Counted from the stretch's first letter, positions 30,711 to 51,233 are shown. The stretch is DNA of 64,000 nt from a virus (IMGVR_UViG_3300014656_003390:1780-65779); one strand, 5' to 3'. The notes: generated by a model from the sequence alone, not told the origin. Translations and numbers: made by a program.

Positions 30711-31305
30711 AAGTTATTATTGCACCATTAATATGGCTAGCTTTATTTGAACAAAGAAATGTAACTATATTTGCTATATCTTCTGGTTCTCCTAGTGATA
30801 ACTTATTCTTTTGTGCAAATTCTTTTATTGATGGTTTAGTATTAATACACCCAGGACATATAACATTAAAAGTAATTCCGTCATGTTTTCCTGCAATTGA
30901 TTTCATAAATCCAATTTGTGCTGCCTTTGATGCAACGAAATATGGATTAGGTCCTTTCTCTTTTCCATAAAAAGAAGATATAGTAATAACTCTACCCCAT
31001 GTTCTATCTTTTGCTAAAAAGAAATCTGTCAGTAATTGAGTTATCCTATAATTTTTAAATATACAATCATCAGCATCTTCTCTTGCACATGTACCCATAC
31101 CACCAATATTATTAATTAAAATATCTACCTCTAATAATTTTGATAAATCTACCAAATCAAGTGCTCTCATTAAATCTTGTCCTTCTTCTCTACTCCAACT
31201 AATAACTTTAACTCCTTCTGCTTCTAATGCTTTTTTAATTGCTAATCCTATTCCATGACTCCCACCAGTTACAATTGCTTTCTTTCCTTTAAGATTTAAA
31301 TCCAT
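30682..31305 (-). CDS. Short-chain dehydrogenase/reductase
   Basis: TGGSHGIG, LINNIGG, YVASK, NVICPG. Confidence 0.9.
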   Translation of the reverse strand: MDLNLKGKKAIVTGGSHGIGLAIKKALEAEGVKVISWSREEGQDLMRALDLVDLSKLLEVDILINNIGGMGTCAREDADDCIFKNYRITQLLTDFFLAKDRTWGRVITISSFYGKEKGPNPYFVASKAAQIGFMKSIAGKHDGITFNVICPGCINTKPSIKEFAQKNKLSLGEPEDIANIVTFLCSNKASHINGAIITCDGGDSHAF

Positions 31306-32222
31306 TTTAATATCTCCTTTACTATTGTATCATTATCTAAACCATTTAATTTATCAATCATTTCTCTCTTTCCGTAATTTTGTATATAATCTTTTACTCC
31401 AAACCTTTTAAATCTTATTGAAATATTATTATTACATATAAAATCTGCAATTGAACTTCCTATACCACCACATTCTAAATGCTCTTCTAGTGTTATAACA
31501 TTTTTAAAATTTTTTAAATATTTTAATAATAATTTTTTATTTAAAGGTGCTATTCTATACAAGTCAATAACACCAACACTTTTTATTTCATTTAATCTTC
31601 TACTAATTTCTAATGCTTTATGAACCATAATTCCTGTAGCAATAATTATTACATCTCTACCTCCACCTTCTATTAATGATAAACCATCATTAAAATTATT
31701 TTTCATATTATTGTATATTAAAGGCAACGGATGGTGGTCAAACTTAACATAGGATAAATGTGGTCTATTATAAAATATATTTGAAAGTTCTGCTAAACAT
31801 ATCGTATCAGCAACATTATAAATATTCATATTAGGAATTGTTTTTAATATTCCAATATCTTGAATTGAATGATGTGTTGGTCCTTCGTGACAATAAGAAT
31901 AACCAGCACCTATACCTATAATTGTTACTGGTAGATTTTTTACTCCCAAATCTAAACTTATTTCTTCAAAACATCTTAAAGTAACAAAGGGTGATATACC
32001 ATGAACAAATACTTTCTTTCCACATGTTGCTAATCCTGCAGCAACTCCAATTAAATTTTGTTCTGACGGTCCAATATTTATTAATTGTTCTGGAATATTT
32101 TCTCTAAACTTCTTGAATGTTCCTGCATTTTGGTCTCCAAGAAGTAAGATTACATCTTTATCTTTTAAAGCATTCTTATAAAGTTCTTCAAACATTGCAT
32201 CTCTCATATCATTATATATCAT
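31296..32222 (-). CDS. Transketolase, C-terminal (pyrimidine-binding) subunit
   Basis: NIGPSEQNLIGVAAGLA, GPTHHS, ITLEEH. Confidence 0.9.
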   Translation of the reverse strand: MIYNDMRDAMFEELYKNALKDKDVILLLGDQNAGTFKKFRENIPEQLINIGPSEQNLIGVAAGLATCGKKVFVHGISPFVTLRCFEEISLDLGVKNLPVTIIGIGAGYSYCHEGPTHHSIQDIGILKTIPNMNIYNVADTICLAELSNIFYNRPHLSYVKFDHHPLPLIYNNMKNNFNDGLSLIEGGGRDVIIIATGIMVHKALEISRRLNEIKSVGVIDLYRIAPLNKKLLLKYLKNFKNVITLEEHLECGGIGSSIADFICNNNISIRFKRFGVKDYIQNYGKREMIDKLNGLDNDTIVKEILKWI

Positions 32223-33040
32223 TCTAATTCTCTCCTTGCAATTTCCAATTGTTCTCCTTTTGGTATTCCGTGATGCCATGCAGGATTACCTTCCATATAT
32301 GAAATACCTTTTCCTTTTATAGTATTTGCAATAATTACCTTTGGTTTATTTAATTTTGAATATTTAAAGACTTTAAGACAGGTAAGAATTTCATTAAAAT
32401 TGTGTCCGTTACATTCTATAACATCCCAACCAAACGATTTCCATTTTTCTACTAATCCAAGTCCGTCTCCAACATAAGTTGATGTTAATTGATGAGTTCC
32501 AAATTTGTTATTATCAACAATCACAATCAAATTACTTAACTTTTGTGCAGAAGCAAACATAACTCCTTCCCAAATACTTCCTTCATTGCATTCTGTATCT
32601 CCTAGCATAACATATGTTTTATAATCTTTTTTATCTAATTTTGCAGCAAGAGCAATTCCACATCCTAATCCTAATCCATGTCCTAGTGAACCACCTGTCA
32701 TTTCAATGCCAGGAGTATGATAATCTGAATGTTCAGGCATAGATGTTTGTCCATATTTTTCTAAATCTGCAATAGTAAAGAAATTATTGTCAGCTAATAT
32801 TGTATATAATGCAAGAGGGCAATGCCCTTTACTATAAATCAATCTATCCCTATCTGGAGAGTTAATTGTCTTTGGAGTTACATTTATAATACCACCATTG
32901 TAAAGAGAAAGTAATAATTCAACACTTGACAATGCCCCACCAAGATGTGCCTGCCCGGTATTTATGGCAACATCAAATAGTTTTTTTCTAACCCATCTGG
33001 CTTTTTCTATTAATTGTTTTTCGTTAAGCGTTTTTTTCAT
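32219..33040 (-). CDS. Transketolase, N-terminal (ThDP-binding) subunit
   Basis: HLGGALS, DRLIYSKGH, GGSLGHGL, GDTECNEG, KGKG. Confidence 0.9.
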   Translation of the reverse strand: MKKTLNEKQLIEKARWVRKKLFDVAINTGQAHLGGALSSVELLLSLYNGGIINVTPKTINSPDRDRLIYSKGHCPLALYTILADNNFFTIADLEKYGQTSMPEHSDYHTPGIEMTGGSLGHGLGLGCGIALAAKLDKKDYKTYVMLGDTECNEGSIWEGVMFASAQKLSNLIVIVDNNKFGTHQLTSTYVGDGLGLVEKWKSFGWDVIECNGHNFNEILTCLKVFKYSKLNKPKVIIANTIKGKGISYMEGNPAWHHGIPKGEQLEIARRELE

Positions 33041-35689: not shown

Positions 35690-36722
35690 TTTCTCTCCAC
35701 CAATTTAATAAATCTTTCATAGTAGTTTCAAAAGAAATTGTTCTTGTCCATCTTGTATCTTTTATAAATTTATAACAATCAGGAATTTGTAATGTAACAT
35801 CGTATGGGCGAAGTAAAGTTGGGTCCAATTCTTTTTTAATTCTATCCTTTAAAGGGGAAAGAGATATAAGATAATCTAACATTTCTCCTATTGTCTTTGT
35901 TGTCTTGCCACCAATATTATAAACTTCTCCAATTGTTCCTTTTCTTACAAGAAGATAATATGCTTGAACTGCATCTCTTACATCAGCCCATGTTCTTATT
36001 GAATCTAAGTTTCCGTGTTTTAATATAAATTCTGCTTTTGTATTTACACAAGCATGTTCTAATGCATCTTCTTTATAATTTTTCTCAAACTCTGCAATCT
36101 GTTTAGCAAAATTAACTTCTGCACTTAACATAGTTCTTCTTGGTCCAGTATGCGTAAACATTCTTGTTCTTATTGTTTTTATTTTAAAATTTGTCCAATA
36201 CATTAATGCAATCATATCTTCTCCTACTTTTCCAACAGCATAAGGATTTGCAGGATTAAATGCTTGAGTTTCTTTTATTGGAACATCTTCTGCTTTAACA
36301 AGTCCGTATACTTCACTTGATGAACAAACATGAATGATTGGGTCGTAATGATATTTATATCCATAAGTCGGTACATTATATTTTGATTTCTCTCTAACAA
36401 TCCTAATTGCTTCTAATAAATTATAAGTTCCAAGAGTATTTGTTCTTATTGTTTCTTCAGGATAAATAAAACTTGCAGATGGATAACTTTGTGCTCCAAG
36501 ATGAAATATATAATCTGGTCTTACTTCATCAACTGCTTTAATACAAGAACTTAAATCATTTAAGTCCATTAATATCCAATGAACTTTATCTTTTATATGT
36601 TTAAAACTTTCTTGGTTATCAGTCCATCTATAAGTAACATAAACTTCTTCTTTCTTTTCAAGAAGTAAATCTGCAAGATGACTTGCTACAAATCCTGGTC
36701 CTGTTATTAAATTTTTAATCAT
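35682..36722 (-). CDS. gmd: GDP-mannose/GDP-heptose 4,6-dehydratase family
   Basis: HLGAQS, SSSEVYG, NPYAVGK, GNLDSIRTWADVRD. Confidence 0.8.
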   Translation of the reverse strand: MIKNLITGPGFVASHLADLLLEKKEEVYVTYRWTDNQESFKHIKDKVHWILMDLNDLSSCIKAVDEVRPDYIFHLGAQSYPSASFIYPEETIRTNTLGTYNLLEAIRIVREKSKYNVPTYGYKYHYDPIIHVCSSSEVYGLVKAEDVPIKETQAFNPANPYAVGKVGEDMIALMYWTNFKIKTIRTRMFTHTGPRRTMLSAEVNFAKQIAEFEKNYKEDALEHACVNTKAEFILKHGNLDSIRTWADVRDAVQAYYLLVRKGTIGEVYNIGGKTTKTIGEMLDYLISLSPLKDRIKKELDPTLLRPYDVTLQIPDCYKFIKDTRWTRTISFETTMKDLLNWWRENV

Positions 36723-37099
36723 TCTATAATCACATCCCTTACATCATTAAATGCAGCAGATATATAACTTTCACAAGCAGCATCTATAATTATACTATCT
36801 TCACTAAACCAGCCACCATGAGTTATTCTACCACTTCTAAATACAACATCTCCTGCTTCTAAATCAAAGTCTTCTACTTCTCCTGTATCAATATTTTTCA
36901 TTCTGTATTTTGATTTACCTTGTAAGACATACATAACTTCAGCATATGGATGCCAATGATTACCAAGTAGTTGTTCACCTTTTTTTATTTTTAATATTTT
37001 CATATTCTTAACTGCTAATTCTCCATTTATAATTTCAAATATGCATCTTCTTTCGTCTTCACTTACTAATTTTGCTTTTCTAATTGTTACGCCATTCAT
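36719..37099 (-). CDS. Cupin (sugar 3,5-epimerase/isomerase, WxcM-C/RmlC-like)
   Basis: GNHWHP...EVMYV...ITHG. Confidence 0.7.
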   Translation of the reverse strand: MNGVTIRKAKLVSEDERRCIFEIINGELAVKNMKILKIKKGEQLLGNHWHPYAEVMYVLQGKSKYRMKNIDTGEVEDFDLEAGDVVFRSGRITHGGWFSEDSIIIDAACESYISAAFNDVRDVIIE

Positions 37100-37100
37100 T

Positions 37101-37268
37101 TTAATAAACTTTTTGAGTATTTCCTCCAAATTGAGATTTTATATTTAAATCTACTTCCTGTTTAAGTTCTTCTTTAAATTTATCATCTTCTCCTGTTGCT
37201 GATACAATATACCATTTTATATATGCTACCTTTGGTTCTATTTCACATATGTATATTATTAAATTCAT
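37101..37268 (-). CDS. Small ORF (55 aa)
   Basis: Fills the gap; ATGA overlap with the upstream gene. Confidence 0.4.
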   Translation of the reverse strand: MNLIIYICEIEPKVAYIKWYIVSATGEDDKFKEELKQEVDLNIKSQFGGNTQKVY

Positions 37269-37819
37269 TTTCCAAATGCTCCTGTCGGTACTTCAATTAA
37301 TAAAGTTGACAACCCCTGGTTAGCCATATCTAATGCATATTTATAACTTGGTATTACATCCTTTTCATTCTTAATTTTTATTACTTTAACATTCTTTAGC
37401 ATTTTTTTTAATCCTGTCGTATAATCTCCTGTATGCTGTAATCCTCCATTCATTGGATATTTACTTCCAATTTGAGTTCGTATTATAACTCCAGGATAAA
37501 ACTCTCCTTTACTCATATCCTCTATTTTATCTAAATGATTTACTAACTGATTAATAGCGCATATTAAAAAATCAATTCTCGGAAATATTGTTATAGGTAT
37601 AAATCCTTCTAATGATAACCCAATACTTAATCCCATTTGAGTATCTTCAAAGACAGGCATTTCTATTTTCTTTTTATCTAAAATATTCTTTAAACTTCCG
37701 TATATTGGACTACCCTCATAAATAACTGTTTGTCCTAGGAAAACTGTATTTGTATCTCTTGCTAACATATCCATTGCCTTAACTAAATTTTGCTGATACT
37801 TTTTATTATTTATAGGCAT
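37265..37819 (-). CDS. 2-oxoacid dehydrogenase E1-beta-like subunit (short)
   Basis: VFLGQ, MPVFEDTQMGLSIG, NQLVNH, GLQHT. Confidence 0.85.
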   Translation of the reverse strand: MPINNKKYQQNLVKAMDMLARDTNTVFLGQTVIYEGSPIYGSLKNILDKKKIEMPVFEDTQMGLSIGLSLEGFIPITIFPRIDFLICAINQLVNHLDKIEDMSKGEFYPGVIIRTQIGSKYPMNGGLQHTGDYTTGLKKMLKNVKVIKIKNEKDVIPSYKYALDMANQGLSTLLIEVPTGAFGK

Positions 37820-38519
37820 TATAATCTCCTTGCGATTTAAATTTCTTTTTCTTAAATATTATCCATTCTCCTACTCCATAATGAGGATACACTCTATTAT
37901 AAGTATAATAAATACAATATTTATTTATAGGAAAACTTCTTTGACCCCATACTTCATATGTAGGAGTATTATTTGCAATACCATTATCCTCAATTATAAA
38001 AGTTATTGGTAAATCATGTCCTTTAGCATATTTAATTGCTTCATCAAAGCATCCCATTTCAGAAGCCATATCACCAACAAAGCACCAAACGTGTGGCATA
38101 TCCATACAAGTTCCTATTATTCCTTTTTCAACATCCATAGTAGACAGATTAACATTTCTCCATCCGTTATCCCAATTTCTTTTAATTCCCATAGCGGTTC
38201 CTAAAGCAATTGGAATACAACCTCCGACAATAGCACTTGAAAATATTTTATACTTCGCTGAATTAATATGACTTGAATTTGCATTAACTATAATTTCATT
38301 CATAAGCCAACTCCAATCTTCAGATTTAAGTAAAGCATGATAATGACTTCGATGTGTTGTAAATACCCAATCATTATCTTTTATTTTTTTGAATATTTTA
38401 ATAAGTTGGTCTTCATTTCCACCACTTAAATGAACAGGTCCATAAGTATTTCCTTCTTTATATTTTGCTATTACTTCTTGTTCAAAGTTAATTAAATCTT
38501 GTTTTGTTATTTGTTTCAT
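37806..38519 (-). CDS. 2-oxoacid dehydrogenase E1-alpha-like ThDP subunit
   Basis: GPVHLSGGNE, THRSHYH, AIVGG, GDMA...EDN. Confidence 0.85.
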   Translation of the reverse strand: MKQITKQDLINFEQEVIAKYKEGNTYGPVHLSGGNEDQLIKIFKKIKDNDWVFTTHRSHYHALLKSEDWSWLMNEIIVNANSSHINSAKYKIFSSAIVGGCIPIALGTAMGIKRNWDNGWRNVNLSTMDVEKGIIGTCMDMPHVWCFVGDMASEMGCFDEAIKYAKGHDLPITFIIEDNGIANNTPTYEVWGQRSFPINKYCIYYTYNRVYPHYGVGEWIIFKKKKFKSQGDYNAYK

Positions 38520-38836
38520 ATTTTATAACTATCCTCATCATCATGATGTGTTGATGCTTCTATAAATTTACAATATGGAGTTACAGAAGTGAATTTGTGA
38601 AGTGTAAAGGGAGGAATTCTAAATGAGTCTCCCTTTTCTAAGATTATACTGTATCCATCGACTACTAAATGTAACTCTCCTTCTAAAATAAAAAATGTTT
38701 CATCTTTATTTTTATGATAATGATACTTTCCTTTTGATGACCATTTATCTTTAAAACATATCATTACTTTACTACAATATAATTCATTATTTAATAACCA
38801 CATTTCACTTCCCCAAGATTTAATTACTAATTTCAT
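38516..38836 (-). CDS. Cupin-fold sugar isomerase
   Basis: KSWGSE, YHYHKNKDETF, HKF, EASTHH. Confidence 0.75.
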   Translation of the reverse strand: MKLVIKSWGSEMWLLNNELYCSKVMICFKDKWSSKGKYHYHKNKDETFFILEGELHLVVDGYSIILEKGDSFRIPPFTLHKFTSVTPYCKFIEASTHHDDEDSYKI

Positions 38837-39252
38837 TTTTCTTTTATTCCTGTTAGCCAAGATGATGACTGAATTTTATCTCCTAAATCATTAAGCATCA
38901 TAATTCCCAATTCATTACAAACTTTTGTTTCTCTATTATCTTTAATATCTCCACCATTTGCAAATATAAAAGTATTTTCTGGAAATGACTTAACTAAAAA
39001 TCTTAATGTTTCACAAACACTTCTATCTTTATCTATTGAAATAAATACTTTATCCACTCCTTTAATGTTTGTCATAATCTTAATTCTCTCATCTTCATTC
39101 ATAAAACTACCTCCTTTCTTTAATTTTGCTTGTTCATCATTATTAACTATTACCCATAACTCATTACTATAAGATTTTGATATTTTTAAATATTCTAAAT
39201 GCCCAATGTGAAGTGGGTCATAATATCCCGAACAAATAATTATACAATCCAT
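38833..39252 (-). CDS. Cytidylyltransferase-like nucleotidyltransferase (HxGH)
   Basis: SGYYDPLHIGH, FANGGD, SSS. Confidence 0.85.
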   Translation of the reverse strand: MDCIIICSGYYDPLHIGHLEYLKISKSYSNELWVIVNNDEQAKLKKGGSFMNEDERIKIMTNIKGVDKVFISIDKDRSVCETLRFLVKSFPENTFIFANGGDIKDNRETKVCNELGIMMLNDLGDKIQSSSWLTGIKEK

Positions 39253-40187
39253 GTTTCTACCCCATGAATACTGAAATTAAAATCAATAATTGCATTATAT
39301 TTATTTTTTAAAGCATCAATTAAATCTTTTCTATTTTCTGGTTTAACGAAAAATATAAAATGTCCTGCTTGTCCAGAACCACATAGTTTTCCTCCTTCTG
39401 CTCCATTCTTTAATGCCCAATTATATAAAATATCAATTCTTTTTGAAGAAGTAAATTTATTTCTTTTTAATTCCCAATTTGCTCTGAGTAGACTTGGTAT
39501 ATTTTTAACATCAGATTTTAGTAAAGCATCTCTCATTCTATAAGCCAATCCTTTTATATCTGCTGTTCTTTTCATTTCATCTTTATGTTTTTCACTATGT
39601 TCTCTTAATTCTTTATGAATATCTCTTCCTTCTTTAGAACCACCAATATAACATAAAACAAAATGTTCATTCAATTCTCTTATAAAAGAATACTTTAATT
39701 TTAATGGATAAACAGTTTGATAATCTTTTCCGAAGTCCATGAAATTAAATCCTCCAAGAGTTGTTGCATATTGGTCTTGCCAACCACCTTCTTTAATTGA
39801 TGTTTCAATTTCATATGCTTCTTTTATTAAATCATAATCATTAGTTCTTCCTCCATGAAGTTCATATAAAAGACGCAACAATAAAATTACAAAACTTGAA
39901 CTACTACCTAAACCACTTCCTGGAGGAATATCATTATAATAAATTAAGTTAAATCCTTTGGTTGGTTTAAAATATTCTATAACTTTGCTTGCTAATATTT
40001 CTGTACTATTTAATTCTTTATCGTTGATATAAATCTTTTTATCTTTTCTTTCTTCTATTGTCATGTGACAGAATTTATTAATTGTTGAACTAATGACTGC
40101 TCCACCATATTTTTCAAATATATAATTTAAATCAGTTCCTCCTCCAGTAAACGAAATCCTAAGCGGTGCTATTCCTCTAATTCTCAT
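39240..40187 (-). CDS. hddA: GHMP kinase, heptose-7-phosphate kinase family
   Basis: APLRISFTGGGTD, PPGSGLGSSSS, GWQDQY, GGKLCGSG. Confidence 0.85.
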   Translation of the reverse strand: MRIRGIAPLRISFTGGGTDLNYIFEKYGGAVISSTINKFCHMTIEERKDKKIYINDKELNSTEILASKVIEYFKPTKGFNLIYYNDIPPGSGLGSSSSFVILLLRLLYELHGGRTNDYDLIKEAYEIETSIKEGGWQDQYATTLGGFNFMDFGKDYQTVYPLKLKYSFIRELNEHFVLCYIGGSKEGRDIHKELREHSEKHKDEMKRTADIKGLAYRMRDALLKSDVKNIPSLLRANWELKRNKFTSSKRIDILYNWALKNGAEGGKLCGSGQAGHFIFFVKPENRKDLIDALKNKYNAIIDFNFSIHGVETWIV

Positions 40188-40473
40188 TTTCTTTTTTCCA
40201 TACTTGTTTTACTTTTTTTACTAAATCTGTATCCCTTGAGTTATGCCATATATCTTTTGGAAAATATTTTCTTGTATCTATAACTTTGTCTGCCCATTTT
40301 CTAAGTATATCCATTGTTTCTTTTGTAGAATATTTTTCTCCAATAGCTATTGCTTCATATTTTATAACTAAATTTGGGTCATTTGTTCTTCCATTCAAAC
40401 CTTTTATAAATTGTGCCAGAGCTACACTTCTTATATTTCCCCCATCACATATACATAATACTTTTGTTGTCAT
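40177..40473 (-). CDS. Small LMW-PTP-like phosphatase
   Basis: VLCICDGGNIRS = CX5R(S) P-loop. Confidence 0.7.
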   Translation of the reverse strand: MTTKVLCICDGGNIRSVALAQFIKGLNGRTNDPNLVIKYEAIAIGEKYSTKETMDILRKWADKVIDTRKYFPKDIWHNSRDTDLVKKVKQVWKKENEN

Positions 40474-41738
40474 TTCTTTTCTCCTATCAACAACTGATTT
40501 GAAAATAACCAATCCTGTGGTACATCTTTAACTAATATTCCATAACTACTTATTTTATCTATCCACCATTGTTTATCATGAAATTGTTTATGAGTGCTAT
40601 CTGCTTCTAAGTTTGGGTCTCCTTCAAATGGTATTGAGAATAAAAAATTATCACTATATGAAAGAATATTTTTTAATGCTTTGTCAAGTTGTTCATCTGT
40701 TAAATGTTCCAATATATCTATACATAAACAAACTTTATATTTCCATTTGTTCTTATTTTTTATTTTTGTAATATCTCCTTCACAAACATCCATTACTCCA
40801 CTATTAGTTCTAAAGGCATTATCAACTGCAAATTTACTAATATCAAATCCTAAATAATCATAATCATAACTAGCAATTGCAAACCCGAACGGTGCTCGTC
40901 CACAACCAAATTCTACAAAATTACATTCTCTATCATTATTATCAAAATAATTTATCCATTGTTTTGCCATAAGAAAATGTTTAACTTCTAATCCTCTATT
41001 AGCAAAATAAAATTCATCTTTATTAATTTCATATCTATCACAAATTTGTTTTGGTAATTCAACAGGATTAATTTGTTTAGTTGGATATAAACCAAGCAAA
41101 TGAGCCATCTTCCATTGTTTCAAGAAGTCCTGATTATGAATAATGCTATCCGATGCATGTTGTTTATATCTTTTTAAAATATAATCCATATATTCTACAG
41201 GCAAATGTCCAAGATGCCAAATAGTAGTATCTAAACAAGCACCTTTTAATTCTCCTTCTAATACTGGATGACTATGAAGTGGATATCCTTTTGCTTCTGA
41301 TATTTTAAATAACCTTCCTGGAACAACATGCACAGGACGAGTGTTATCTTCATGCCCTAAATCTCCAATGAAGTGTCTCATCTTAACATTATAAATTCCA
41401 GGTTCTCTTTCTGATATGAATTTCTTTATTTTTTCAATTCCTTCTTCTTCTAATATTTCATCTTCGTCTAAAACCAAACACCAATCATTAGGATAAGCTT
41501 GTTTTAAATAATCTAAATATTTCTGTCTACATTTTCCATTTGTTGCCATATCATTATCATCCCAGCCATTATAATGAACTTCTTGATTGTCTGGTAAATG
41601 TTTTAAGCACGGACTTATTGAAAAGCTATAATCGCTTGTAAAATATAAAATTTTATCTGCATCTTTTACACTATCAAAACACATATCAAGAAAATGTTGT
41701 TTTCCAGGTCCCATGATAACTATTACCAATTTATTCAT
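40470..41738 (-). CDS. Glycosyltransferase-methyltransferase fusion
   Basis: N-terminal LVLDEDE (DxD) and IWHLGH; C-terminal EFGCGR, GFDIS, IDILEHL. Confidence 0.85.
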   Translation of the reverse strand: MNKLVIVIMGPGKQHFLDMCFDSVKDADKILYFTSDYSFSISPCLKHLPDNQEVHYNGWDDNDMATNGKCRQKYLDYLKQAYPNDWCLVLDEDEILEEEGIEKIKKFISEREPGIYNVKMRHFIGDLGHEDNTRPVHVVPGRLFKISEAKGYPLHSHPVLEGELKGACLDTTIWHLGHLPVEYMDYILKRYKQHASDSIIHNQDFLKQWKMAHLLGLYPTKQINPVELPKQICDRYEINKDEFYFANRGLEVKHFLMAKQWINYFDNNDRECNFVEFGCGRAPFGFAIASYDYDYLGFDISKFAVDNAFRTNSGVMDVCEGDITKIKNKNKWKYKVCLCIDILEHLTDEQLDKALKNILSYSDNFLFSIPFEGDPNLEADSTHKQFHDKQWWIDKISSYGILVKDVPQDWLFSNQLLIGEKK

Positions 41739-42589
41739 TTCTTCTCCTCCCTTAAATAAAATTCAACAAGTCGTTTAATTCCTTCTTCTAACTTTATTTT
41801 TGGTTCATATCCGAATCTTTTTATTTTACTTATATCAATATTTACTTGTTGAGGTTGTGCTATTTCTGGTTCTTTCAGTTCTATATCCATATGACACTCT
41901 CCTATTTGGTCTGCAATTTCATGAGAAATTAGTTGAGCGACATCAATTAAATTTCTACTATCTTCTCCACTAATATCATAATCTGTATTTTTTGCTTCTT
42001 CCCAATTATTTAATAAACAAAATATCCCATCTACAAAATCACTAATGTAAGTAAAATCAAGTGTTTTATGACTATCACCACATAAAACTAAATATTCTCC
42101 TTTTAAAGCATTAATAACCCAAGTTGTTAAAAGTCGAGTTGTTATATCTTTACAAGGAGCATATACTGTGCTTGGCCGAATTATAATATAATCTATCCCA
42201 TAACAATTGTGGTATGCTTTACATAAATGTTCTCCATACTTTTTACTTGCTGTATAAGGATTTTCTTCTTCACTTAAAACTCTTGATGAAGAAAAATAAA
42301 CTATTTTCTTTATATGATTTCTTCTACAGTATTCTAAAACATGTTCTATGCCATCTGAATTTTCAAATGCTAAATCTGGGTTGCTTATTGTATCTTTTAT
42401 TTTACAATTACTTGCTAAATGAAACATAATATCGGCATTTAATTGTTCATCAATAACGGATAAATAATCTGTACTAATATCACTATTTCTCTTATCAACT
42501 TCTAAAATACATTCGCATCCTTGCTTATCTAATTCTCTTTTTAAATATTGTCCAATCATACCACATGAACCTGTAATAATATACTTCAT
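41735..42589 (-). CDS. NAD-dependent epimerase/dehydratase (extended SDR)
   Basis: TGSCGMIG, FSSS, PYTASK, RPSTVY, LDFTYISD. Confidence 0.9.
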   Translation of the reverse strand: MKYIITGSCGMIGQYLKRELDKQGCECILEVDKRNSDISTDYLSVIDEQLNADIMFHLASNCKIKDTISNPDLAFENSDGIEHVLEYCRRNHIKKIVYFSSSRVLSEEENPYTASKKYGEHLCKAYHNCYGIDYIIIRPSTVYAPCKDITTRLLTTWVINALKGEYLVLCGDSHKTLDFTYISDFVDGIFCLLNNWEEAKNTDYDISGEDSRNLIDVAQLISHEIADQIGECHMDIELKEPEIAQPQQVNIDISKIKRFGYEPKIKLEEGIKRLVEFYLREEKK

Positions 42590-43755
42590 CTTGTAATCTC
42601 CACAATTAATTTATTCCAGTCAGCACCAACCTTATCCCAATTATATAATTTATTTACTTTATCTATTCCAATTTTTCCATAATGTTCTCTTAATTCAGGA
42701 TTATCATATAAGAGTGTTAATGCTTTTGCTCCACTTTCATCATCCATAATTGCTCGTTCTACATTCCAACTTCCTGTTAATTCTGTTGCTATTTTTATAG
42801 GAATACCACACACACCATCCTCAACTAATAATTCCTGTGTTGTAGCATAATCAGTTACTATAGGTGTAATGCCACAAGCCATTGCTTCAATAGTAGGAAT
42901 ACCAAATCCTTCTCCAGATGTTGTTAAGAAGAATACATCCATAACATTATAAACTTCATTCATTTGTTTATAATCGAAACCATTAAAGAATGTCATTCCA
43001 GAAAACATAACCCTATTATTTATTTTATATCTGTTAATCAATTGAATTATATCTATTGGTGCTGCTACATCATATGGGTCAGTATGTAAAAATAAAATAG
43101 CATCTGGATGGTCTTTAGCAAATAGAGCAAATGATTTAATTAATCTATCAGGCATCTTTCTTCCTTGATTTCTTTGAACAACACCAACAACAAACTTTCC
43201 CTGAAGTCCCCACTTTGCTTTTATCTTTTCTTTTTCTTCTTTTGGTAATGGAAAATAAATCTTTGTATCTATAGCATGTGGAATATATTTTGTATCAAAT
43301 CCATAACATTCTTTTACTTGCCTTTGTCCATGCCGAGCCATAGCAACAGGACAATTAACTTTCTTTAAAATATTTTCACATTGAAGAGGTAATCCTCCAC
43401 CACCATCGCTTGGGTAATAGAATATAGTTTTTGCAGGTGAAAAATCAATATTCATTAACCATGGCCAACACATAAAAGTATCAAGTAAAATTCCAAACAC
43501 ATCTATATTATATTTCTTTATGTATGGTTGAATTAAATTTTGAGCATATGGAACATGACTTCCACCTAATATAGTAAAATTAAATTTTGTTCCATCTTTA
43601 AGAATTAATCCAGGAGGTATTTCTTGACCAACATAATTATGGCCTAGAAAATAAACATTATGTCCTGCTTCTGCAAGCTTATTACATATATTCCAAGATA
43701 TTGTCGCATAACCAGTACAACAAAGAGGAGAGTCGCTTAACCAAAGAATGTTCAT
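42586..43755 (-). CDS. GT-B (GT4-like) glycosyltransferase
   Basis: IPHAID, RNQGRK, GEGFGIPTIEAMACG. Confidence 0.9.
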   Translation of the reverse strand: MNILWLSDSPLCCTGYATISWNICNKLAEAGHNVYFLGHNYVGQEIPPGLILKDGTKFNFTILGGSHVPYAQNLIQPYIKKYNIDVFGILLDTFMCWPWLMNIDFSPAKTIFYYPSDGGGGLPLQCENILKKVNCPVAMARHGQRQVKECYGFDTKYIPHAIDTKIYFPLPKEEKEKIKAKWGLQGKFVVGVVQRNQGRKMPDRLIKSFALFAKDHPDAILFLHTDPYDVAAPIDIIQLINRYKINNRVMFSGMTFFNGFDYKQMNEVYNVMDVFFLTTSGEGFGIPTIEAMACGITPIVTDYATTQELLVEDGVCGIPIKIATELTGSWNVERAIMDDESGAKALTLLYDNPELREHYGKIGIDKVNKLYNWDKVGADWNKLIVEITR

Positions 43756-44012
43756 CTGAACATCACTGGCTTATTACCACTATACATTTTTGTTTGTCTA
43801 TCAAAATCATTTTGATATAATATATCTTCTTGTGTTAATTTACATCCACTTGTAAAAGTTAAAGACATTCCACTAACACTTAATTTAAAATAACAATCCT
43901 GAAATTGTTCTGCAAAAATTCTTGGAATTGTAATAGCATAACTATCACCAGTTTTATTGTTAATAGTAGTCTTTCTTATTTTATATTGTATCCCAAATCC
44001 TCTATATGCCAA
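43752..44012 (-). CDS. AbrB/SpoVT-like transcription regulator
   Basis: SYAITIP motif; first gene of the operon; GGTGA SD before a TTG start. Confidence 0.55.
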   Translation of the reverse strand: MAYRGFGIQYKIRKTTINNKTGDSYAITIPRIFAEQFQDCYFKLSVSGMSLTFTSGCKLTQEDILYQNDFDRQTKMYSGNKPVMFR

Positions 44013-44110: not shown

Positions 44111-45058
44111 TCACTTATATATATTATATTTACTCATAAATTTACAACCACTAATACAAAACCCATCTCTCTCTATGCTAACACATTTAGGAAATATTAA
44201 ATCATCTCTTTCAAATAAATATTGAAGTTGCTTTTCTTCAACTACACAATGTCTTAACTTCTTTTCAGATAAATGTTGTTTAAGTATTTCAAGGACCTCT
44301 TTTTTTGTATAACCCTTTTCCTTGAAATATAATATGATTAATCCTCGTTCTTTATAGTTCAAATCTTTTCGTTTCAACAATTCTTCTATACACAATGGCA
44401 ACTCTTTTATAACTATACTTTCTGAAGAACTAACATTAGAATTTATAAAAAGAGTTGGTTCTTCTTTTGTTTTGAAATCAAATTTTTTTAAATCAAACAT
44501 ATTATCTCCTCCAAGTAAAGAAGTATGTTTAATAAAATGTTGTTTTAATCCCCAATTCTTACAAAACAAATCTCCTTTATTAAATTCGCTTTCTGTTAAA
44601 GGAATACAAAATCTTTTTCTTTTAACATTAAAAGTATTTTCAATTCTATACAATCGAGCAATATCACCAACGACTGCCATATCGCATTTTAATTTTAATT
44701 CATCAATAAAATATTTTTGAGAGTTATAAAGACAACTCTTTGGATTTATTGGAACATAATCATTACAAAATAAAAATATATGATATCCTCCTCCACTCAT
44801 ATTAACCTTATGCCTCAATTTTTGTTTATTAAGTTCTTGATGAAGTTTGTTTGCTTCTTCCCAACTTCCTTCACCATCAAAGTCCCAAAATATTTTATCG
44901 ATGATAGCACTATTGTAATCTATTTTATTGTTTTCATTTAAATGTTCAAAGTCATATATTGTTCTATAAAGTGCTTTCTTTCCATTGTAAACATTTATAA
45001 ACTTAACCAATTCGCCTTTATCTTTACAAAGTTTACGAGGTAATCCTATTTCAAACAT
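44111..45058 (-). CDS. Archaeo-eukaryotic primase: PriS catalytic domain fused to a PriL-like Cys-rich C-terminal domain
   Basis: FWDFD, SGGGYH, DIARLYRIENTFN; C-terminal LPLCI...RHC...FPKC...FCISGC. Confidence 0.8.
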   Translation of the reverse strand: MFEIGLPRKLCKDKGELVKFINVYNGKKALYRTIYDFEHLNENNKIDYNSAIIDKIFWDFDGEGSWEEANKLHQELNKQKLRHKVNMSGGGYHIFLFCNDYVPINPKSCLYNSQKYFIDELKLKCDMAVVGDIARLYRIENTFNVKRKRFCIPLTESEFNKGDLFCKNWGLKQHFIKHTSLLGGDNMFDLKKFDFKTKEEPTLFINSNVSSSESIVIKELPLCIEELLKRKDLNYKERGLIILYFKEKGYTKKEVLEILKQHLSEKKLRHCVVEEKQLQYLFERDDLIFPKCVSIERDGFCISGCKFMSKYNIYK

Positions 45059-45785
45059 TAATATTATTACCTCCACATTTATCTTTAAATTGGCACCATT
45101 TACACCAAAAACTTGGTTTCATTTTATATTCACCACATTCCATTTCTAATCTAACTTTATTTATAATTTTTATAGCTTTTTGAATATACTTATCACTTAC
45201 TGATTCAAAGAAAAGTTTTCCTTTATCTAAAAAATAAATACCCCAATAACCTACTTCTACTCCATCAATTTTGTTTATTGTTTTATCATTATCGAAAAGT
45301 ATTTTATAAATCGCTAGTTCTAATCTATAATCATCGAGTTGATTTTGATTAAATTGCCCTGTCTTCCAATCAATAATTATTAATTTGTTATCTTTAGGAT
45401 TTAAATAAACTGCATCTATAATTCCTCTTAACATTAATTCAGGGCAACTAACTTTTAATTCTTGAAATACAGGATTAAAATACGCTGGATTAAACTCTCC
45501 AATTTCACTAACACAATCCTTTATTCTTTGATTTTCAAATTCAACAAACTTAACTAAGTCTTCATCTGGTTTCTTTAATTTAATTTCTTGCTTTCCATCG
45601 GCAGTTTTTGTGATATCAATATTCTTATAAAATCTTTCTACCTTTTTATGAATTAAACTTCCTCTATCTTGTGCAGGAGAAGCAATATTTTTAATTTCAT
45701 CTAAGTAAATATACTTCCATTTCATAGGACACTGTAAAAATGTCTTAATTTGACTTTTACTTAACCATCTTTTTTGTTGTTCCAT
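45051..45785 (-). CDS. PD-(D/E)XK RecB/Cas4-like exonuclease
   Basis: LSKSQIKTFLQCP, GIIDAV, IIDWKTG, CKWCQFKDKC. Confidence 0.85.
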   Translation of the reverse strand: MEQQKRWLSKSQIKTFLQCPMKWKYIYLDEIKNIASPAQDRGSLIHKKVERFYKNIDITKTADGKQEIKLKKPDEDLVKFVEFENQRIKDCVSEIGEFNPAYFNPVFQELKVSCPELMLRGIIDAVYLNPKDNKLIIIDWKTGQFNQNQLDDYRLELAIYKILFDNDKTINKIDGVEVGYWGIYFLDKGKLFFESVSDKYIQKAIKIINKVRLEMECGEYKMKPSFWCKWCQFKDKCGGNNINV

Positions 45786-45789
45786 ATTA

Positions 45790-46557
45790 TTATTTAAATA
45801 ATTTAGTATAAAGAGGACAAACATATTCTGTATTTTGTTTTCCTAACAATTTGTTTTCTTTTAGCTGCTGTTCATTCTCTCCTTTCATCATGCAATAATT
45901 TTGAACTTTACAAGGTGGACCAATCCATCTTAATATTCTTGGATCTATCTTGTTTGATATTTCTTCCATCATTAAATTAGCAACTTCTCTAAATTCTCCT
46001 TGTGTTTTTAAACATAATCTTTTGTTAAGCATTCCTATTAATGCTCGTAGTGAACAAGAAAATGTTACTGTAGAATAAATGTTCATTGGTAATAAGCCTC
46101 TTGCATCTTGAGTTGAAACATTTTCTTTCAATGCTTGTCTATATTCTTTTTGAATTTTAAGCATCTTGTTGTGATATCCAATATATTCTTTTGAATTTTT
46201 TTTAAAAGGATTAAAGTAATCCCCATTTTCTGCAAAGTTAGGAAGATTTATGCATCTTAAACTTTGGATTGAATATGAAAAACCAATTCTGTGTCTTGTT
46301 AATTGCTGTTGAAGTGCCCTTGATATATTTTCAAGTTTGAATGTTAATCCTACATATTCAAGAAATGTTGGCATTCCATCATTGAGTAAAACATCATTAA
46401 CATAATCATCAATACTTGAACCAAGCCATTTCTGTGGATCTTTTTTTAATTCTTCTAAAGTATCAGGAACAGGAGAGTGCATAACTCTTCTTGCCCAGCA
46501 CATAGTTTCTATGGGATCTGGTGTATAGTTAATAAGTTTTATATTTGGTTTTTTCAT
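45790..46557 (-). CDS. thyX: Flavin-dependent thymidylate synthase family protein
   Basis: RHRIGFSYSIQSLR, DARGLLP, NKRLC. Confidence 0.85.
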   Translation of the reverse strand: MKKPNIKLINYTPDPIETMCWARRVMHSPVPDTLEELKKDPQKWLGSSIDDYVNDVLLNDGMPTFLEYVGLTFKLENISRALQQQLTRHRIGFSYSIQSLRCINLPNFAENGDYFNPFKKNSKEYIGYHNKMLKIQKEYRQALKENVSTQDARGLLPMNIYSTVTFSCSLRALIGMLNKRLCLKTQGEFREVANLMMEEISNKIDPRILRWIGPPCKVQNYCMMKGENEQQLKENKLLGKQNTEYVCPLYTKLFK

Positions 46558-50944: not shown

Positions 50945-51233
50945 TTTTATTTTTTCCTCCTTTCAATATAATTAATTCCATTATAGCATATATAGCAAGA
51001 TCCATCCAAGTATCAATTAAAGTTTCGTCTGGAAGATTTTGTTTATTCTCTCCTGAATAATATGTCTGAAGTCGTGCAATTTTTCTTCTTACTGAAAGCC
51101 ATCTTTCAAGTTCAGAGTATTCTCCTTCAAAATAATCATTGCCATAATGCTTATTTTTTGCTGAAAATTGACTTAATAATTCATTGCAGACTACAGCAAA
51201 TTCTTCATTCTTTTCCATAAATTTATCAGTCAT
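50928..51233 (-). CDS. DUF1599/nucleotide-modification-associated all-alpha domain
   Basis: KNKHYG...RKIARL...DTWMDLAIYAIM. Confidence 0.7.
   Translation of the reverse strand: MTDKFMEKNEEFAVVCNELLSQFSAKNKHYGNDYFEGEYSELERWLSVRRKIARLQTYYSGENKQNLPDETLIDTWMDLAIYAIMELIILKGGKNKNEKNK

What the first reader, a model, noticed from the sequence alone, without database searches (positions are those of the whole stretch)
38516..40473. Non-canonical NDP-heptose route: cupin and CX5R phosphatase in place of GmhA and GmhB
The HddA-like kinase is normally accompanied by GmhA (SIS isomerase), GmhB (HAD phosphatase) and HddC. None is recognisable here. Instead the kinase is flanked by a CX5R LMW-PTP-like protein, an HxGH nucleotidyltransferase and a cupin isomerase, which match the missing steps one to one. 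This would be an analogous-enzyme version of the pathway.
Basis: inference. Interest (0 to 1): 0.7.

Follow-up and report, generated by a model that had tools for sequence, protein, structure and literature searches.

The report
Phage heptose-type sugar activation, swapped enzymes
An uncultured groundwater phage carries four overlapping genes that most likely turn a common sugar phosphate into a nucleotide-activated heptose-type sugar, using a small cupin and a miniature cysteine phosphatase where bacteria use GmhA and GmhB; nothing has been assayed, and sister phages do without those two genes.

Summary
Four translationally coupled minus-strand genes lie at 38516-40473: a 98-aa CX5R(S) protein with a confident LMW-PTP/ArsC-like fold, an HddA-like GHMP kinase, an HxGH cytidylyltransferase-family nucleotidyltransferase, and a metal-binding cupin. 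No SIS, NTP_transferase or HAD-IIIA gene is found in the record.

The record is a phage contig, about 46% complete, not a cellular genome. The genes sit in a ~20-kb glycan island beside ThyX, primase and DNA polymerase.

In its favour:
- The cupin is an orthologue (35-40% identity) of a cupin found in cyanophage heptose modules, next to HldA/HldC-like or HddA/HddC-like genes and a mini-HAD phosphatase. Three such complete phage genomes have no SIS gene.
- Its best full-length homologues of known function are D-lyxose/D-mannose and phosphomannose isomerases.
- The CX5R gene occupies the slot of the mini-HAD.

Against it:
- Only kinase plus nucleotidyltransferase are invariant across the ~13 sister lineages with readable flanks. 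CX5R is in about half and the cupin in about a third.
- Heptose versus hexose is undecided.

Earlier notes of this scan proposed cupin-for-GmhA on other DNA. The CX5R phosphatase and the HddA plus HxGH pairing are the new elements here. Verdict: new variant of a known kind.

The parts
40177..40473 (-). 98-aa CX5R(S) protein with a minimal LMW-PTP/ArsC-like fold. Candidate distal (C7 or C6) sugar-phosphate phosphatase.
   Evidence: P-loop C9-x5-R15-S16. Across 48 family members G12, R15 and W60 are invariant, and C9, S16, D62 and D74 are at least 90% conserved (numbering +1). Model pLDDT is 94.9. Top structural matches are LMW-PTP/ArsC, Z 6.2-8.1. Homologues lie beside the kinase in L003, L005, L009, L013, L014, L021, L024, L025 and L027; in L013 the nucleotidyltransferase lies between them.
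39240..40187 (-). HddA-like GHMP anomeric sugar(-phosphate) kinase, 315 aa.
   Evidence: NF049969 gives 210 bits, E 4e-62, below the equivalog cut-off of 600. PDB hits are 4n3o, 4usk/4usm (WcbL) and 3k85 at 1e-50 to 1e-45. R10, D19, S95-97, Q137 and D138 align with WcbL R13, D22, S118-120, Q162 and D163. The gene is invariant in all related loci.
38833..39252 (-). HxGH cytidylyltransferase-family nucleotidyltransferase, 139 aa. It should convert the sugar-1-phosphate to an NDP-sugar; the nucleotide is unknown.
   Evidence: PF01467 at 1e-11; H15xGH18; C-terminal KIQSSS motif. The family profile hits ECT, 3glv, TagD and HldC 5x9q. The gene is always beside the kinase.
38516..38836 (-). Metal-binding cupin, 106 aa from the ATG that overlaps the nucleotidyltransferase stop. 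Candidate ketose-to-manno-aldose (phosphate) isomerase.
   Evidence: Ligands H39, H41, E46 and H80 are invariant in 11 homologues. It is 36% identical to the cyanophage Bellamy cupin that lies between an HddA-like kinase and an NTP_transferase. Best full-length PDB matches are D-lyxose/D-mannose isomerases and Thermococcus PMI.
40470..41738 (-). Context: 422-aa protein with a C-terminal SAM methyltransferase domain. It lies just upstream of the module in nearly every related locus whose upstream flank is held.
37265..38519 (-). Context: truncated E1 alpha/beta-like ThDP enzyme pair. It lies downstream of the module wherever the downstream flank is held.
42586..43755 (-). Context: Glycos_transf_1 family (PF00534) glycosyltransferase at the head of the sugar island; a likely user of the activated sugar (inference).
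   Evidence: PF00534 at 1.4e-17. Conserved in related loci.
45790..46557 (-). Context: ThyX-family protein between the DNA polymerase III alpha gene and the PD-(D/E)XK nuclease and primase genes. Several sister phages carry a C5 DNA methylase in this upstream block.
   Evidence: PF02511 at 2.3e-34.

Best explanation
The four genes are the sugar-activation front end of a phage glycan island.

Proposed order (inferred, not shown):
1. The cupin isomerises a host ketose phosphate to the manno-configured aldose phosphate. The most likely substrate is sedoheptulose-7-P, giving D-glycero-D-manno-heptose-7-P.
2. The HddA-like GHMP kinase phosphorylates C1.
3. The CX5R LMW-PTP-fold protein removes the distal phosphate, through a cysteinyl-phosphate intermediate (C9 nucleophile, R15, D74 as general acid).
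4. The HxGH nucleotidyltransferase makes the NDP-sugar.

Downstream enzymes of the island then tailor the sugar and glycosyltransferases transfer it.

Kinase and nucleotidyltransferase are the obligatory core. The cupin and the phosphatase are auxiliary genes that make the phage independent of host GmhA/GmhB-type activities. Sister phages that lack them presumably rely on host or promiscuous enzymes.

What is shown: the folds, motifs, gene coupling and comparative distribution. What is inferred: every substrate and the order of steps.
For: Kinase:
- Its closest solved relatives are HddA/WcbL, E 1e-50 to 1e-45.
- All WcbL residues essential by mutagenesis are conserved, including Q162, which the WcbL authors link to heptose rather than hexose.
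- Cellular relatives at 38% identity sit with an NTP_transferase and a SIS_2 isomerase.

Cupin:
- Homologues at 35-40% identity occur in 42 phage records, mostly cyanomyoviruses.
- In P-SSM2 and S-CAM1, which I scanned, the module is rfaE_dom_II-like nucleotidyltransferase, rfaE_dom_I-like PfkB kinase, mini-HAD phosphatase and cupin. S-SSM7 and P-TIM68 carry the same annotated gene set, and I confirmed their mini-HAD and cupin with profiles.
- In Bellamy the module is mini-HAD, HddA-like kinase, cupin, NTP_transferase.
- The complete genomes of P-SSM2, S-CAM1 and Bellamy have no SIS or SIS_2 domain.
- The family profile's best full-length PDB hits are D-lyxose/D-mannose isomerases (1e-7, 1e-6) and Thermococcus phosphomannose isomerase. 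Foldseek's top hits are the same enzymes, TM 0.83-0.87.
- The metal ligands are invariant.

CX5R protein:
- Confident LMW-PTP/ArsC-like model.
- C, R, S and a loop Asp are conserved across 48 family members.
- It is beside the kinase or the nucleotidyltransferase in 9 lineages.
- It occupies the slot of the mini-HAD in the other module types. That mini-HAD is absent from the window and from all groundwater sister loci.

Precedents for the same logic in phages:
- UDP-arabinofuranose route: isomerase, kinase, HAD phosphatase, nucleotidyltransferase (PMC13326640).
- A HAD-APH enzyme, a cytidylyltransferase and a GT-B that put heptose on 5hmC in E. coli (bioRxiv 10.1101/2023.12.21.572611).
Against: - No enzyme has been assayed.
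- Among the ~13 sister lineages with readable flanks, the cupin is present in about 5 and CX5R in about 7 (9 when loci with only the upstream flank are counted). The two vary independently. L006, L015, L023 and L026 have neither.
- CX5R needs at least 3 gains or losses on the kinase tree. It is missing from the window's closest relative, whose kinase is 83% identical.
- To my knowledge no LMW-PTP-fold enzyme is known to act on sugar phosphates. Z of 7-8 is only moderately above background for this aligner.
- Cupins are functionally diverse. KdgF and quercetinase score about as well as the isomerases. D-lyxose isomerases act on unphosphorylated sugars.
- The kinase is far below the HddA equivalog cut-off, and the nucleotidyltransferase is not specifically HldC-like.
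- HddA makes the alpha-anomer, whereas known HxGH heptose nucleotidyltransferases use the beta-anomer (established pathway knowledge).
- The record is 46% complete and the host is unknown, so canonical enzymes may exist off-contig or in the host.
Confidence: 0.5

Rival explanations
1. Two-step salvage. The GHMP kinase phosphorylates a free sugar at C1 and the nucleotidyltransferase activates it, as in Fkp, GalK-type or AmgK/MurU routes. No isomerase or phosphatase step is needed. The cupin acts elsewhere, for example on the NDP-4-keto sugar or on a free sugar. The CX5R protein is a protein phosphatase or regulator.
For: Only kinase and nucleotidyltransferase are invariant; the cupin and CX5R are dispensable and scattered. 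Most GHMP anomeric kinases take free sugars (established knowledge). The cupin's highest-identity solved relatives, the D-lyxose isomerases, use unphosphorylated sugars. LMW-PTPs are classically protein phosphatases.
Against: The kinase groups with HddA/WcbL, not with galactokinase or fucokinase: E 1e-50 against 1e-10. A phosphatase-like gene of one fold or another accompanies the kinase in three independent module types. The cupin is tied to heptose-type kinases and nucleotidyltransferases across very distant phages.
Confidence: 0.2
2. Same four-step logic but with a hexose. The cupin acts as a phosphomannose isomerase (Fru-6-P to Man-6-P), the kinase makes Man-1,6-bisphosphate, CX5R gives Man-1-P, and the nucleotidyltransferase gives NDP-mannose. 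NDP-mannose then feeds the GDP-mannose-4,6-dehydratase-like SDR of the island.
For: The cupin hits PMI models, and Thermococcus PMI is the top structural match. WcbL binds mannose in its sugar pocket. SDR 35682-36722 matches GDP_Man_Dehyd at 8e-57. The sister phage L001 carries a second cupin that is a clear PF01050 member at 52 bits.
Against: The kinase keeps the Gln that WcbL's authors tie to heptose. In cyanophages the orthologous cupin partners HldA- and HldC-like enzymes, at 148 and 106 bits on the heptose-specific models. GDP-heptose dehydratases also belong to the GMD family (established knowledge).
Confidence: 0.2
3. The host supplies GmhA and GmhB. The phage adds only an alternative kinase and nucleotidyltransferase to divert host heptose-7-P. 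The cupin and CX5R have unrelated roles in tailoring or host takeover.
For: Four sister lineages have neither gene. In the published heptosyl-5hmC reconstitution, E. coli provided the early steps. From memory, E. coli gmhB mutants are leaky, so the phosphatase step can be covered by other enzymes.
Against: This does not explain why a PMI-like cupin recurs inside heptose modules in phage genomes that lack any SIS gene. It also does not explain why a minimal phosphatase of either fold is so often translationally coupled to the kinase.
Confidence: 0.1

Closest known systems
GDP-D-glycero-alpha-D-manno-heptose pathway (GmhA, HddA, GmhB, HddC)
   Same: HddA-like GHMP kinase with conserved catalytic and sugar-binding residues. 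The same four chemical steps are proposed.
   Different: The isomerase candidate is a cupin, not SIS. The phosphatase candidate is an LMW-PTP fold, not HAD. The nucleotidyltransferase is the HxGH cytidylyltransferase type, not NTP_transferase. The kinase scores 210 bits against a 600-bit equivalog cut-off. The genes are encoded by a phage.
Cyanomyovirus heptose module (T4-GC 304-308 of P-SSM2, S-SSM7, S-CAM1, P-TIM68; Bellamy variant)
   Same: Orthologous cupin at 35-40% identity. HxGH nucleotidyltransferase in the P-SSM2 type and HddA-like kinase in the Bellamy type. A miniature phosphatase next to the kinase. No SIS gene in the complete phage genomes.
   Different: The phosphatase there is a ~110-aa HAD, mis-annotated as 'phosphoheptose isomerase', not CX5R. 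The combination of HddA-like kinase with HxGH nucleotidyltransferase was seen only in the groundwater phages. Function is unassayed there too.
Phage 'contig 53' cluster that makes heptosyl-5hmC DNA (bioRxiv 10.1101/2023.12.21.572611)
   Same: Phage-encoded phosphatase plus kinase plus cytidylyltransferase-family nucleotidyltransferase feeding a GT-B glycosyltransferase. It lies in a DNA-metabolism neighbourhood and yields a heptose.
   Different: There the kinase is APH-like and fused to a HAD, and no isomerase is encoded because E. coli supplied it. I held no sequences, so homology to the window's genes was not tested.
Phage UDP-arabinofuranose pathway for arabinosyl-5-hydroxycytosine (A5P isomerase, AfhE, AfhF; PMC13326640)
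   Same: Identical logic: ketose-P isomerase, anomeric kinase, distal phosphatase, nucleotidyltransferase, in a phage.
   Different: A pentose, a SIS isomerase, a HAD phosphatase and a fused nucleotidyltransferase-kinase. The folds are unrelated to the four proteins here.
LMW-PTP / LMW-type arsenate reductase superfamily (e.g. 1jf8, 5got, YwlE)
   Same: Fold, the CX5R(S/T) P-loop at the N-terminus of helix 1, and a conserved Asp in the loop before the last helix.
   Different: About 50 residues shorter. The P-loop is C-x-x-G-N-[VI]-R-S rather than C-x-G-N-x-C-R-S. There is no Pfam LMWPc hit. A sugar-bisphosphate substrate would be new for this fold.
Cupin-type aldose-ketose isomerases (D-lyxose/D-mannose isomerase 2y0o, 7nzo; Thermococcus PMI 7zvm; type II PMI domain PF01050)
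   Same: Single-domain metal cupin with HxH-E-H ligands. These are the best full-length sequence and structure matches. Their chemistry gives manno-configured aldoses.
   Different: At most 26% identity. The family has its own invariant residues (K6, W8, G9, E11, K23, K31, K44, E93, S95, T96, D102). A C7 phosphorylated substrate is proposed and untested.

Membership tests
HddA (D-glycero-alpha-D-manno-heptose-7-phosphate kinase, NF049969) | Score at or above the curated equivalog cut-off of 600 bits | tested here: not met
   210.6 bits, E 4e-62. HddA-like, not an equivalog member.
HddA (D-glycero-alpha-D-manno-heptose-7-phosphate kinase, NF049969) | GHMP fold with the catalytic and sugar-binding residues of WcbL (R13, D22, S118-120, Q162, D163) | tested here: met
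   R10, D19, S95-97, Q137 and D138 align with them. They are invariant in 27 phage homologues.
HddA (D-glycero-alpha-D-manno-heptose-7-phosphate kinase, NF049969) | Phosphorylates heptose-7-P at C1 (alpha) | not testable with these tools
   Needs an enzyme assay.
HldC / RfaE domain II (heptose-1-P adenylyltransferase, TIGR02199) | Score at or above the 181.5-bit cut-off over the whole domain | tested here: not met
   42.6 bits, residues 4-76 only. The profile search ranks ECT, 3glv and TagD above HldC 5x9q.
Cytidylyltransferase-like superfamily (PF01467) | HxGH motif and a C-terminal ISTT-like motif | tested here: met
   H15-I-G-H18 and KIQSSS.
LMW-PTP / ArsC-type phosphatase superfamily | CX5R(S/T) P-loop between strand 1 and helix 1 | tested here: met
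   C9-DGGNI-R15-S16. The motif is present in 54 of 59 family representatives. In the model the loop lies between E2-8 and H14-24.
LMW-PTP / ArsC-type phosphatase superfamily | Four-stranded parallel sheet fold matching solved members | tested here: met
   15 of the top 20 chains are LMW-PTP or ArsC, Z 6.2-8.1, 81-89 residues aligned. The top Foldseek rows are mostly the same families, but E is only 0.05-0.5.
LMW-PTP / ArsC-type phosphatase superfamily | Sequence membership (Pfam LMWPc, PF01451) | tested here: not met
   No Pfam hit at E 0.01. The profile against PDB gives only 2gi4 at E 1.4.
LMW-PTP / ArsC-type phosphatase superfamily | General-acid Asp in the loop before the last helix | tested here: inconclusive
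   D74 is at least 90% conserved and lies in the 66-80 loop. I could not measure its distance to the P-loop.
Cupin aldose-ketose isomerases (type II PMI PF01050; D-lyxose isomerase PF07385) | Metal ligands HxH...E...H | tested here: met
   H39, H41, E46 and H80 are invariant in 11 homologues.
Cupin aldose-ketose isomerases (type II PMI PF01050; D-lyxose isomerase PF07385) | Score above the Pfam gathering threshold | tested here: inconclusive
   Lyx_isomer scores 24.5 bits, above its 20.8 cut-off, but with no stretch passing on its own. PF01050 scores 19.3, below 23.6. MPI_cupin_dom scores 22.5, below 27. The profile hits 2y0o at 1e-7 and 7nzo at 1e-6 over the full length.
GmhA (SIS sedoheptulose-7-P isomerase) | SIS or SIS_2 domain | tested here: not met
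   None in the 65.8-kb record. The cupin is an analogue candidate, not a member.
GmhB (HAD-IIIA heptose-1,7-bisphosphate phosphatase) | HAD motifs (DxDxT and the rest) | tested here: not met
   No TIGR01656 hit and no mini-HAD profile hit in the window. The only HAD-like domain is an NT5C-type domain fused to a dUTPase-like domain at 51230-52186.

The most novel reading that the evidence does not exclude
The module is a fully non-orthologous NDP-heptose route. It would contain the first LMW-PTP-fold sugar-bisphosphate phosphatase and a cupin sedoheptulose-7-P isomerase. Its product, after ThDP-, B12-radical-SAM- and SDR-dependent tailoring, would be attached by the adjacent Glycos_transf_1 family glycosyltransferase to a C5-modified pyrimidine in the phage DNA. 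That would be an exceptionally elaborate DNA hypermodification. The DNA target is suggested only by position: ThyX (or a C5 DNA methylase in sister phages), primase, PD-(D/E)XK nuclease and DNA polymerase lie directly upstream.
Probability: 0.15. Interest if true: 0.85.

Novelty: new variant of a known kind. Interest (0 to 1): 0.6.

Why it matters
If the assignments hold, all four steps of nucleotide-heptose synthesis can be done by folds other than the textbook ones.

- Annotation pipelines that look for GmhA and GmhB would then miss heptose synthesis in phages. Earlier notes of this scan suggest the same for CPR bacteria and DPANN archaea.
- The cupin would be an undescribed class of sedoheptulose-7-P isomerase.
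- The CX5R protein would extend the LMW-PTP fold to sugar-phosphate metabolism.
- Cultured cyanophages carry orthologues of the cupin, so the central claim can be tested at the bench now.
- The surrounding island hints that phages build far more complex glycans, on DNA or on virions, than those characterised so far.

Tried and rejected
- DNA similarity of the four genes to the phage collection: no match.
- Two IMG/VR scans for kinase relatives (single protein, then alignment): no confirmed relative.
- The CX5R alignment was too divergent for a pattern scan.
- tblastn of CX5R against 50,697 phage records: no match. The family therefore seems confined to uncultured phages.
- Sequence and profile searches of CX5R against PDB: nothing significant.
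- Context look-ups of two distant CX5R members returned only contigs under 1 kb. Whether the wider family always accompanies a kinase is unknown.
- I suspected the conserved 321-aa ORF at 44111-45076 might be a TET/JBP dioxygenase. Its invariant DFD and SGxGxH motifs look to me like an archaeo-eukaryotic primase instead.
- Reading the ThDP pair as phosphonopyruvate decarboxylase: rejected, because the hits are to the E1_dh family.
- No RNA holder was listed among the sequencing runs.
- Literature searches returned nothing for: heptose + GHMP + cytidylyltransferase; cyanophage + heptose + cupin; sedoheptulose + cupin + isomerase + heptose; GmhB + LMW-PTP. The library covers only open-access papers and preprints.
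- I could not read model coordinates, so the active-site geometry of CX5R was not measured.
Full report
WHAT THE WINDOW IS

The window is 64 kb of a 65.8-kb IMG/VR virus record that CheckV rates about 46% complete. It encodes a large terminase, a portal/head-morphogenesis fusion, a tape measure and a baseplate hub on the plus strand. On the minus strand it encodes a DNA polymerase III alpha-type polymerase, ThyX, a PD-(D/E)XK nuclease and an ORF whose invariant DFD and SGxGxH motifs look primase-like to me. G+C is about 28%. Nearly identical DNA is held by groundwater metagenome runs from four studies.

The finding lies inside a sugar island of about 20 kb (25.8-43.8 kb, minus strand). The island holds five glycosyltransferases, three SDRs of the epimerase/dehydratase family, a short-chain dehydrogenase, a UDP-glucose/GDP-mannose dehydrogenase-like protein, two B12-radical-SAM enzymes, two ThDP enzyme pairs, a second cupin and a methyltransferase.

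THE OBSERVATION

It is confirmed. The four genes are translationally coupled.
- CX5R ORF, 40177-40473. Its ATG overlaps the stop of the upstream methyltransferase gene (ATGA) behind an AGGAG.
- Kinase, 39240-40187. It overlaps the CX5R ORF by 11 nt.
- Nucleotidyltransferase, 38833-39252. It overlaps the kinase by 13 nt.
- Cupin. Its most likely start, 38836, overlaps the nucleotidyltransferase stop. The ESM Atlas holds the protein from that methionine.

Searches of the whole record for SIS_2, SIS, NTP_transferase and HAD-IIIA found nothing, while the control genomes responded.

THE KINASE

NCBIfam's HddA model is by far the best hit at 210 bits and E 4e-62. The next hit is mevalonate kinase at 79 bits. 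The HddA score is still well under the equivalog cut-off of 600.

The best solved relatives are Campylobacter HddA 4n3o, Burkholderia WcbL and Bacteroides 3k85, at 1e-50 to 1e-45. Galactokinase scores 1e-10.

In the alignment to WcbL, R13, D22, S118-120, Q162 and D163 correspond to R10, D19, S95-97, Q137 and D138. The WcbL paper shows that mutating any of these abolishes activity. It also reports that D22, Q162 and D163 contact the bound mannose, and that Q162 distinguishes the heptokinase from galactokinases (PMC4691232). These residues are invariant in 27 phage homologues.

Cellular relatives at 38% identity carry an N-terminal CBS extension. They sit between an NTP_transferase and a SIS_2 isomerase in a capsule-type locus.

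THE NUCLEOTIDYLTRANSFERASE

It has HxGH and a C-terminal KIQSSS motif. The family profile matches ethanolamine-phosphate cytidylyltransferase, Thermoplasma 3glv, TagD and HldC 5x9q, in that order. It is a cytidylyltransferase-superfamily enzyme of unresolved specificity, and it is not an HldC equivalog (42.6 bits against 181.5).

THE CX5R PROTEIN

It has no Pfam, NCBIfam or PDB sequence hit. An exhaustive HMMER search found 55 representatives, most of about 100-125 aa. In a 48-member alignment G12, R15 and W60 are invariant, and C9, S16, D62 and D74 are at least 90% conserved (numbering on the 98-aa protein). Of the 59 sequences returned by the two homology searches, 54 carry CX5R[ST].

AlphaFold gives pLDDT 94.9. 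The wide structural search puts pI258 ArsC first (Z 8.1). Fifteen of the top 20 chains are LMW-PTPs or LMW-type arsenate reductases, with 81-89 of 97 residues aligned. The top Foldseek rows are mostly the same families, at weak E-values. D74 lies in the loop before the last helix, where LMW-PTPs carry their general acid. I could not verify the geometry.

Sequence-level membership of Pfam LMWPc does not.

THE CUPIN

H39, H41, E46 and H80 form the classical metal site. The family profile's best full-length PDB matches are D-lyxose isomerases (2y0o at 1e-7, 7nzo at 1e-6) and Thermococcus phosphomannose isomerase (6e-5). Quercetinase scores higher but only over the core.

Foldseek on a pLDDT 92.9 model ranks Thermococcus PMI, KdgF and the D-lyxose isomerases together, at TM 0.82-0.87. 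The lyxose isomerases have the highest identity, 23-26%. All of these isomerases make manno- or lyxo-configured aldoses from the ketose. S7P to D-glycero-D-manno-heptose-7-P has the same stereochemistry.

COMPARATIVE EVIDENCE 1: SISTER PHAGES

Kinase homologues of 43-83% identity, and one of 33%, lie in syntenic islands on groundwater and other metagenome contigs, some binned into DPANN MAGs. I mapped all island genes onto 27 loci.

The methyltransferase, kinase, nucleotidyltransferase and E1 alpha/beta pair recur in essentially every locus whose flanks are long enough to show them. CX5R is found in the window, L003, L005, L009, L013, L014, L021, L024, L025 and L027. The cupin is found in the window, L001, L003, L009 and L013. 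L006, L015, L023 and L026 have neither.

On a kinase tree CX5R needs at least three changes and is not clustered. The window's closest relative, L001 (83% identical kinase), lacks it and carries an extra bona fide PF01050 cupin instead. The four genes are therefore not a fixed cassette. Two are core and two are accessory.

COMPARATIVE EVIDENCE 2: CYANOPHAGES

tblastn of the cupin finds 42 phage records, mostly cyanomyoviruses, at 35-40% identity.

In P-SSM2 and S-CAM1 the neighbours are as follows:
- a 132-138-aa HxGH nucleotidyltransferase (in P-SSM2, 106 bits on rfaE_dom_II);
- a PfkB kinase (in P-SSM2, 148 bits on rfaE_dom_I);
- a protein of about 110 aa annotated 'phosphoheptose isomerase';
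- the cupin.

S-SSM7 and P-TIM68 carry the same annotated gene set, and my profiles confirm their mini-HAD and cupin.

The '~110-aa isomerase' is in fact a miniature HAD phosphatase. It has the DxDxT, T/S, K and DD motifs, and the P-SSM2 copy hits TIGR01689 at 1e-8.

In Bellamy and SynMITS9220M01 the orthologous cupin (36% identity, E 2e-19) lies between an HddA-like GHMP kinase and an NTP_transferase. In Bellamy a mini-HAD lies three genes upstream of the kinase.

The complete genomes of P-SSM2, S-CAM1 and Bellamy contain no SIS or SIS_2 domain.

Across three module types the kinase, nucleotidyltransferase and phosphatase change fold. The cupin stays, and GmhA is missing. That is the strongest argument that the cupin supplies the isomerase step. 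By position, CX5R is the counterpart of the mini-HAD. None of this is biochemical evidence, and the hosts may have GmhA.

PUBLISHED PRECEDENTS

The route isomerase, anomeric kinase, distal phosphatase, nucleotidyltransferase is established for phage UDP-arabinofuranose (PMC13326640, section 27).

A phage cluster encoding a HAD-APH bifunctional enzyme, a cytidylyltransferase and a GT-B puts one or two heptoses on 5hmC when expressed in E. coli (bioRxiv 10.1101/2023.12.21.572611). That work also finds such glycosyltransferases next to thymidylate-synthase homologues, C5 methylases and DNA polymerases.

Here ThyX, and in several sister phages a C5 DNA methylase, lies in the replication block a few genes upstream of the island's first glycosyltransferase. 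A DNA target is therefore conceivable. Position is the only evidence. In cyanophages the module lies beside tail-fibre and head genes.

VERDICT

Best reading (about 0.5): a phage auxiliary module that makes an NDP-heptose-type sugar from a host ketose phosphate. A cupin would be the isomerase and a minimal LMW-PTP-fold enzyme the distal phosphatase. The core pairs an HddA-like kinase with an HxGH nucleotidyltransferase.

Rivals:
- a two-step salvage pair with unrelated accessory genes (0.2);
- the same logic on mannose (0.2);
- host-supplied early steps (0.1).

The general statement that kinase plus nucleotidyltransferase make an NDP-sugar for the island is much safer, about 0.85 by my estimate.

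RELATION TO EARLIER NOTES OF THIS SCAN

After completing the analysis above I found that this scan had already proposed cupin-for-GmhA on other DNA: marine phages, CPR bacteria and a DPANN archaeon. Those notes agree with my result but are not independent evidence.

The CX5R protein was not noted anywhere else. One unchecked note describes a GHMP kinase, a nucleotidyltransferase and an LMW-PTP in another genome.

I found no paper that describes a cupin S7P isomerase or an LMW-PTP-fold GmhB analogue.

Noticed in passing
L032:5664-6008, L033:5682-6005, L035:4649-4984, L036:5342-5680, L030:5441-5749: The ~102-114-aa cyanophage genes annotated 'phosphoheptose isomerase' (T4-GC 306) are miniature HAD phosphatases, not SIS isomerases. 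They have the DxDxT, T/S, K and DD motifs, and the P-SSM2 copy hits TIGR01689 at 1e-8. The orthologous cupin next door is annotated 'cysteine dioxygenase' or 'putative nucleotidyltransferase'.
   Followed up: yes
L007:1094-2065 (protein P0128): One CX5R family member is fused to a ~230-aa C-terminal region containing a degenerate Nudix-box-like stretch. It sits next to a Formyl_trans_N gene on a small phage-like contig. Pfam finds nothing in it.
   Followed up: partly
window 45790-46557; L001:834-1898; L003:2119-3462; L006:2675-3706: A ThyX-family gene lies directly downstream of the DNA polymerase in the window and in the P0019 contig. Several sister phages instead carry a C5 DNA methylase (PF00145) in the upstream block: next to the polymerase in L001 and L003, and upstream of the island in L006. 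Both kinds of enzyme act at pyrimidine C5.
   Followed up: partly
window 44111-45076: A conserved 321-aa ORF with invariant DFD and SGxGxH motifs, which I read as archaeo-eukaryotic primase-like, plus a weak PriL-like C-terminal hit. It lies between the PD-(D/E)XK nuclease gene and the small conserved ORF at 43752-44012 that precedes the island's first glycosyltransferase.
   Followed up: partly
L003:10720-11688 (also L004, L010): In this lineage the cupin gene is a 322-aa ORF with an HNH domain ahead of the cupin. This suggests a homing-endonuclease insertion or fusion.
   Followed up: no
window 31296-33040: A split transketolase-like pair (273 and 327 aa). Among the first loci I compared it has no counterpart: only a marginal hit in L005, at that locus's E1-alpha-like gene. 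The E1 alpha/beta-like pair at 37265-38519, by contrast, recurs throughout. P-TIM68 also has a transketolase-like gene, a FabG-like reductase and an alcohol dehydrogenase beside its heptose module.
   Followed up: no
window 51230-52186: Fusion of a dUTPase_2-like domain with an NT5C-type HAD 5'-nucleotidase. This is the only HAD-like domain in the window, and it is more likely part of nucleotide-pool editing than of sugar metabolism.
   Followed up: no
L001:8423-8764: The window's closest relative lacks the CX5R gene. It carries a second small cupin that is a clear PF01050 phosphomannose-isomerase-domain member (52 bits) between the SDR and the methyltransferase.
   Followed up: partly
window 36719-37129: A second metal-type cupin (HWHPYAE motif). 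A homologue lies just upstream of the 4,6-dehydratase-like SDR in most sister loci whose flank reaches that far, whereas the finding's cupin is much patchier. Its function is unknown. It could cover the isomerase step where the first cupin is absent.
   Followed up: partly
L005 (GCA_022561055.1), P0037, P0048: Several sister contigs are deposited in MAGs labelled Nanoarchaeota or Pacearchaeota. The window's polymerase is bacterial Pol III alpha-type. Either the binning is wrong or the host range is unclear.
   Followed up: no
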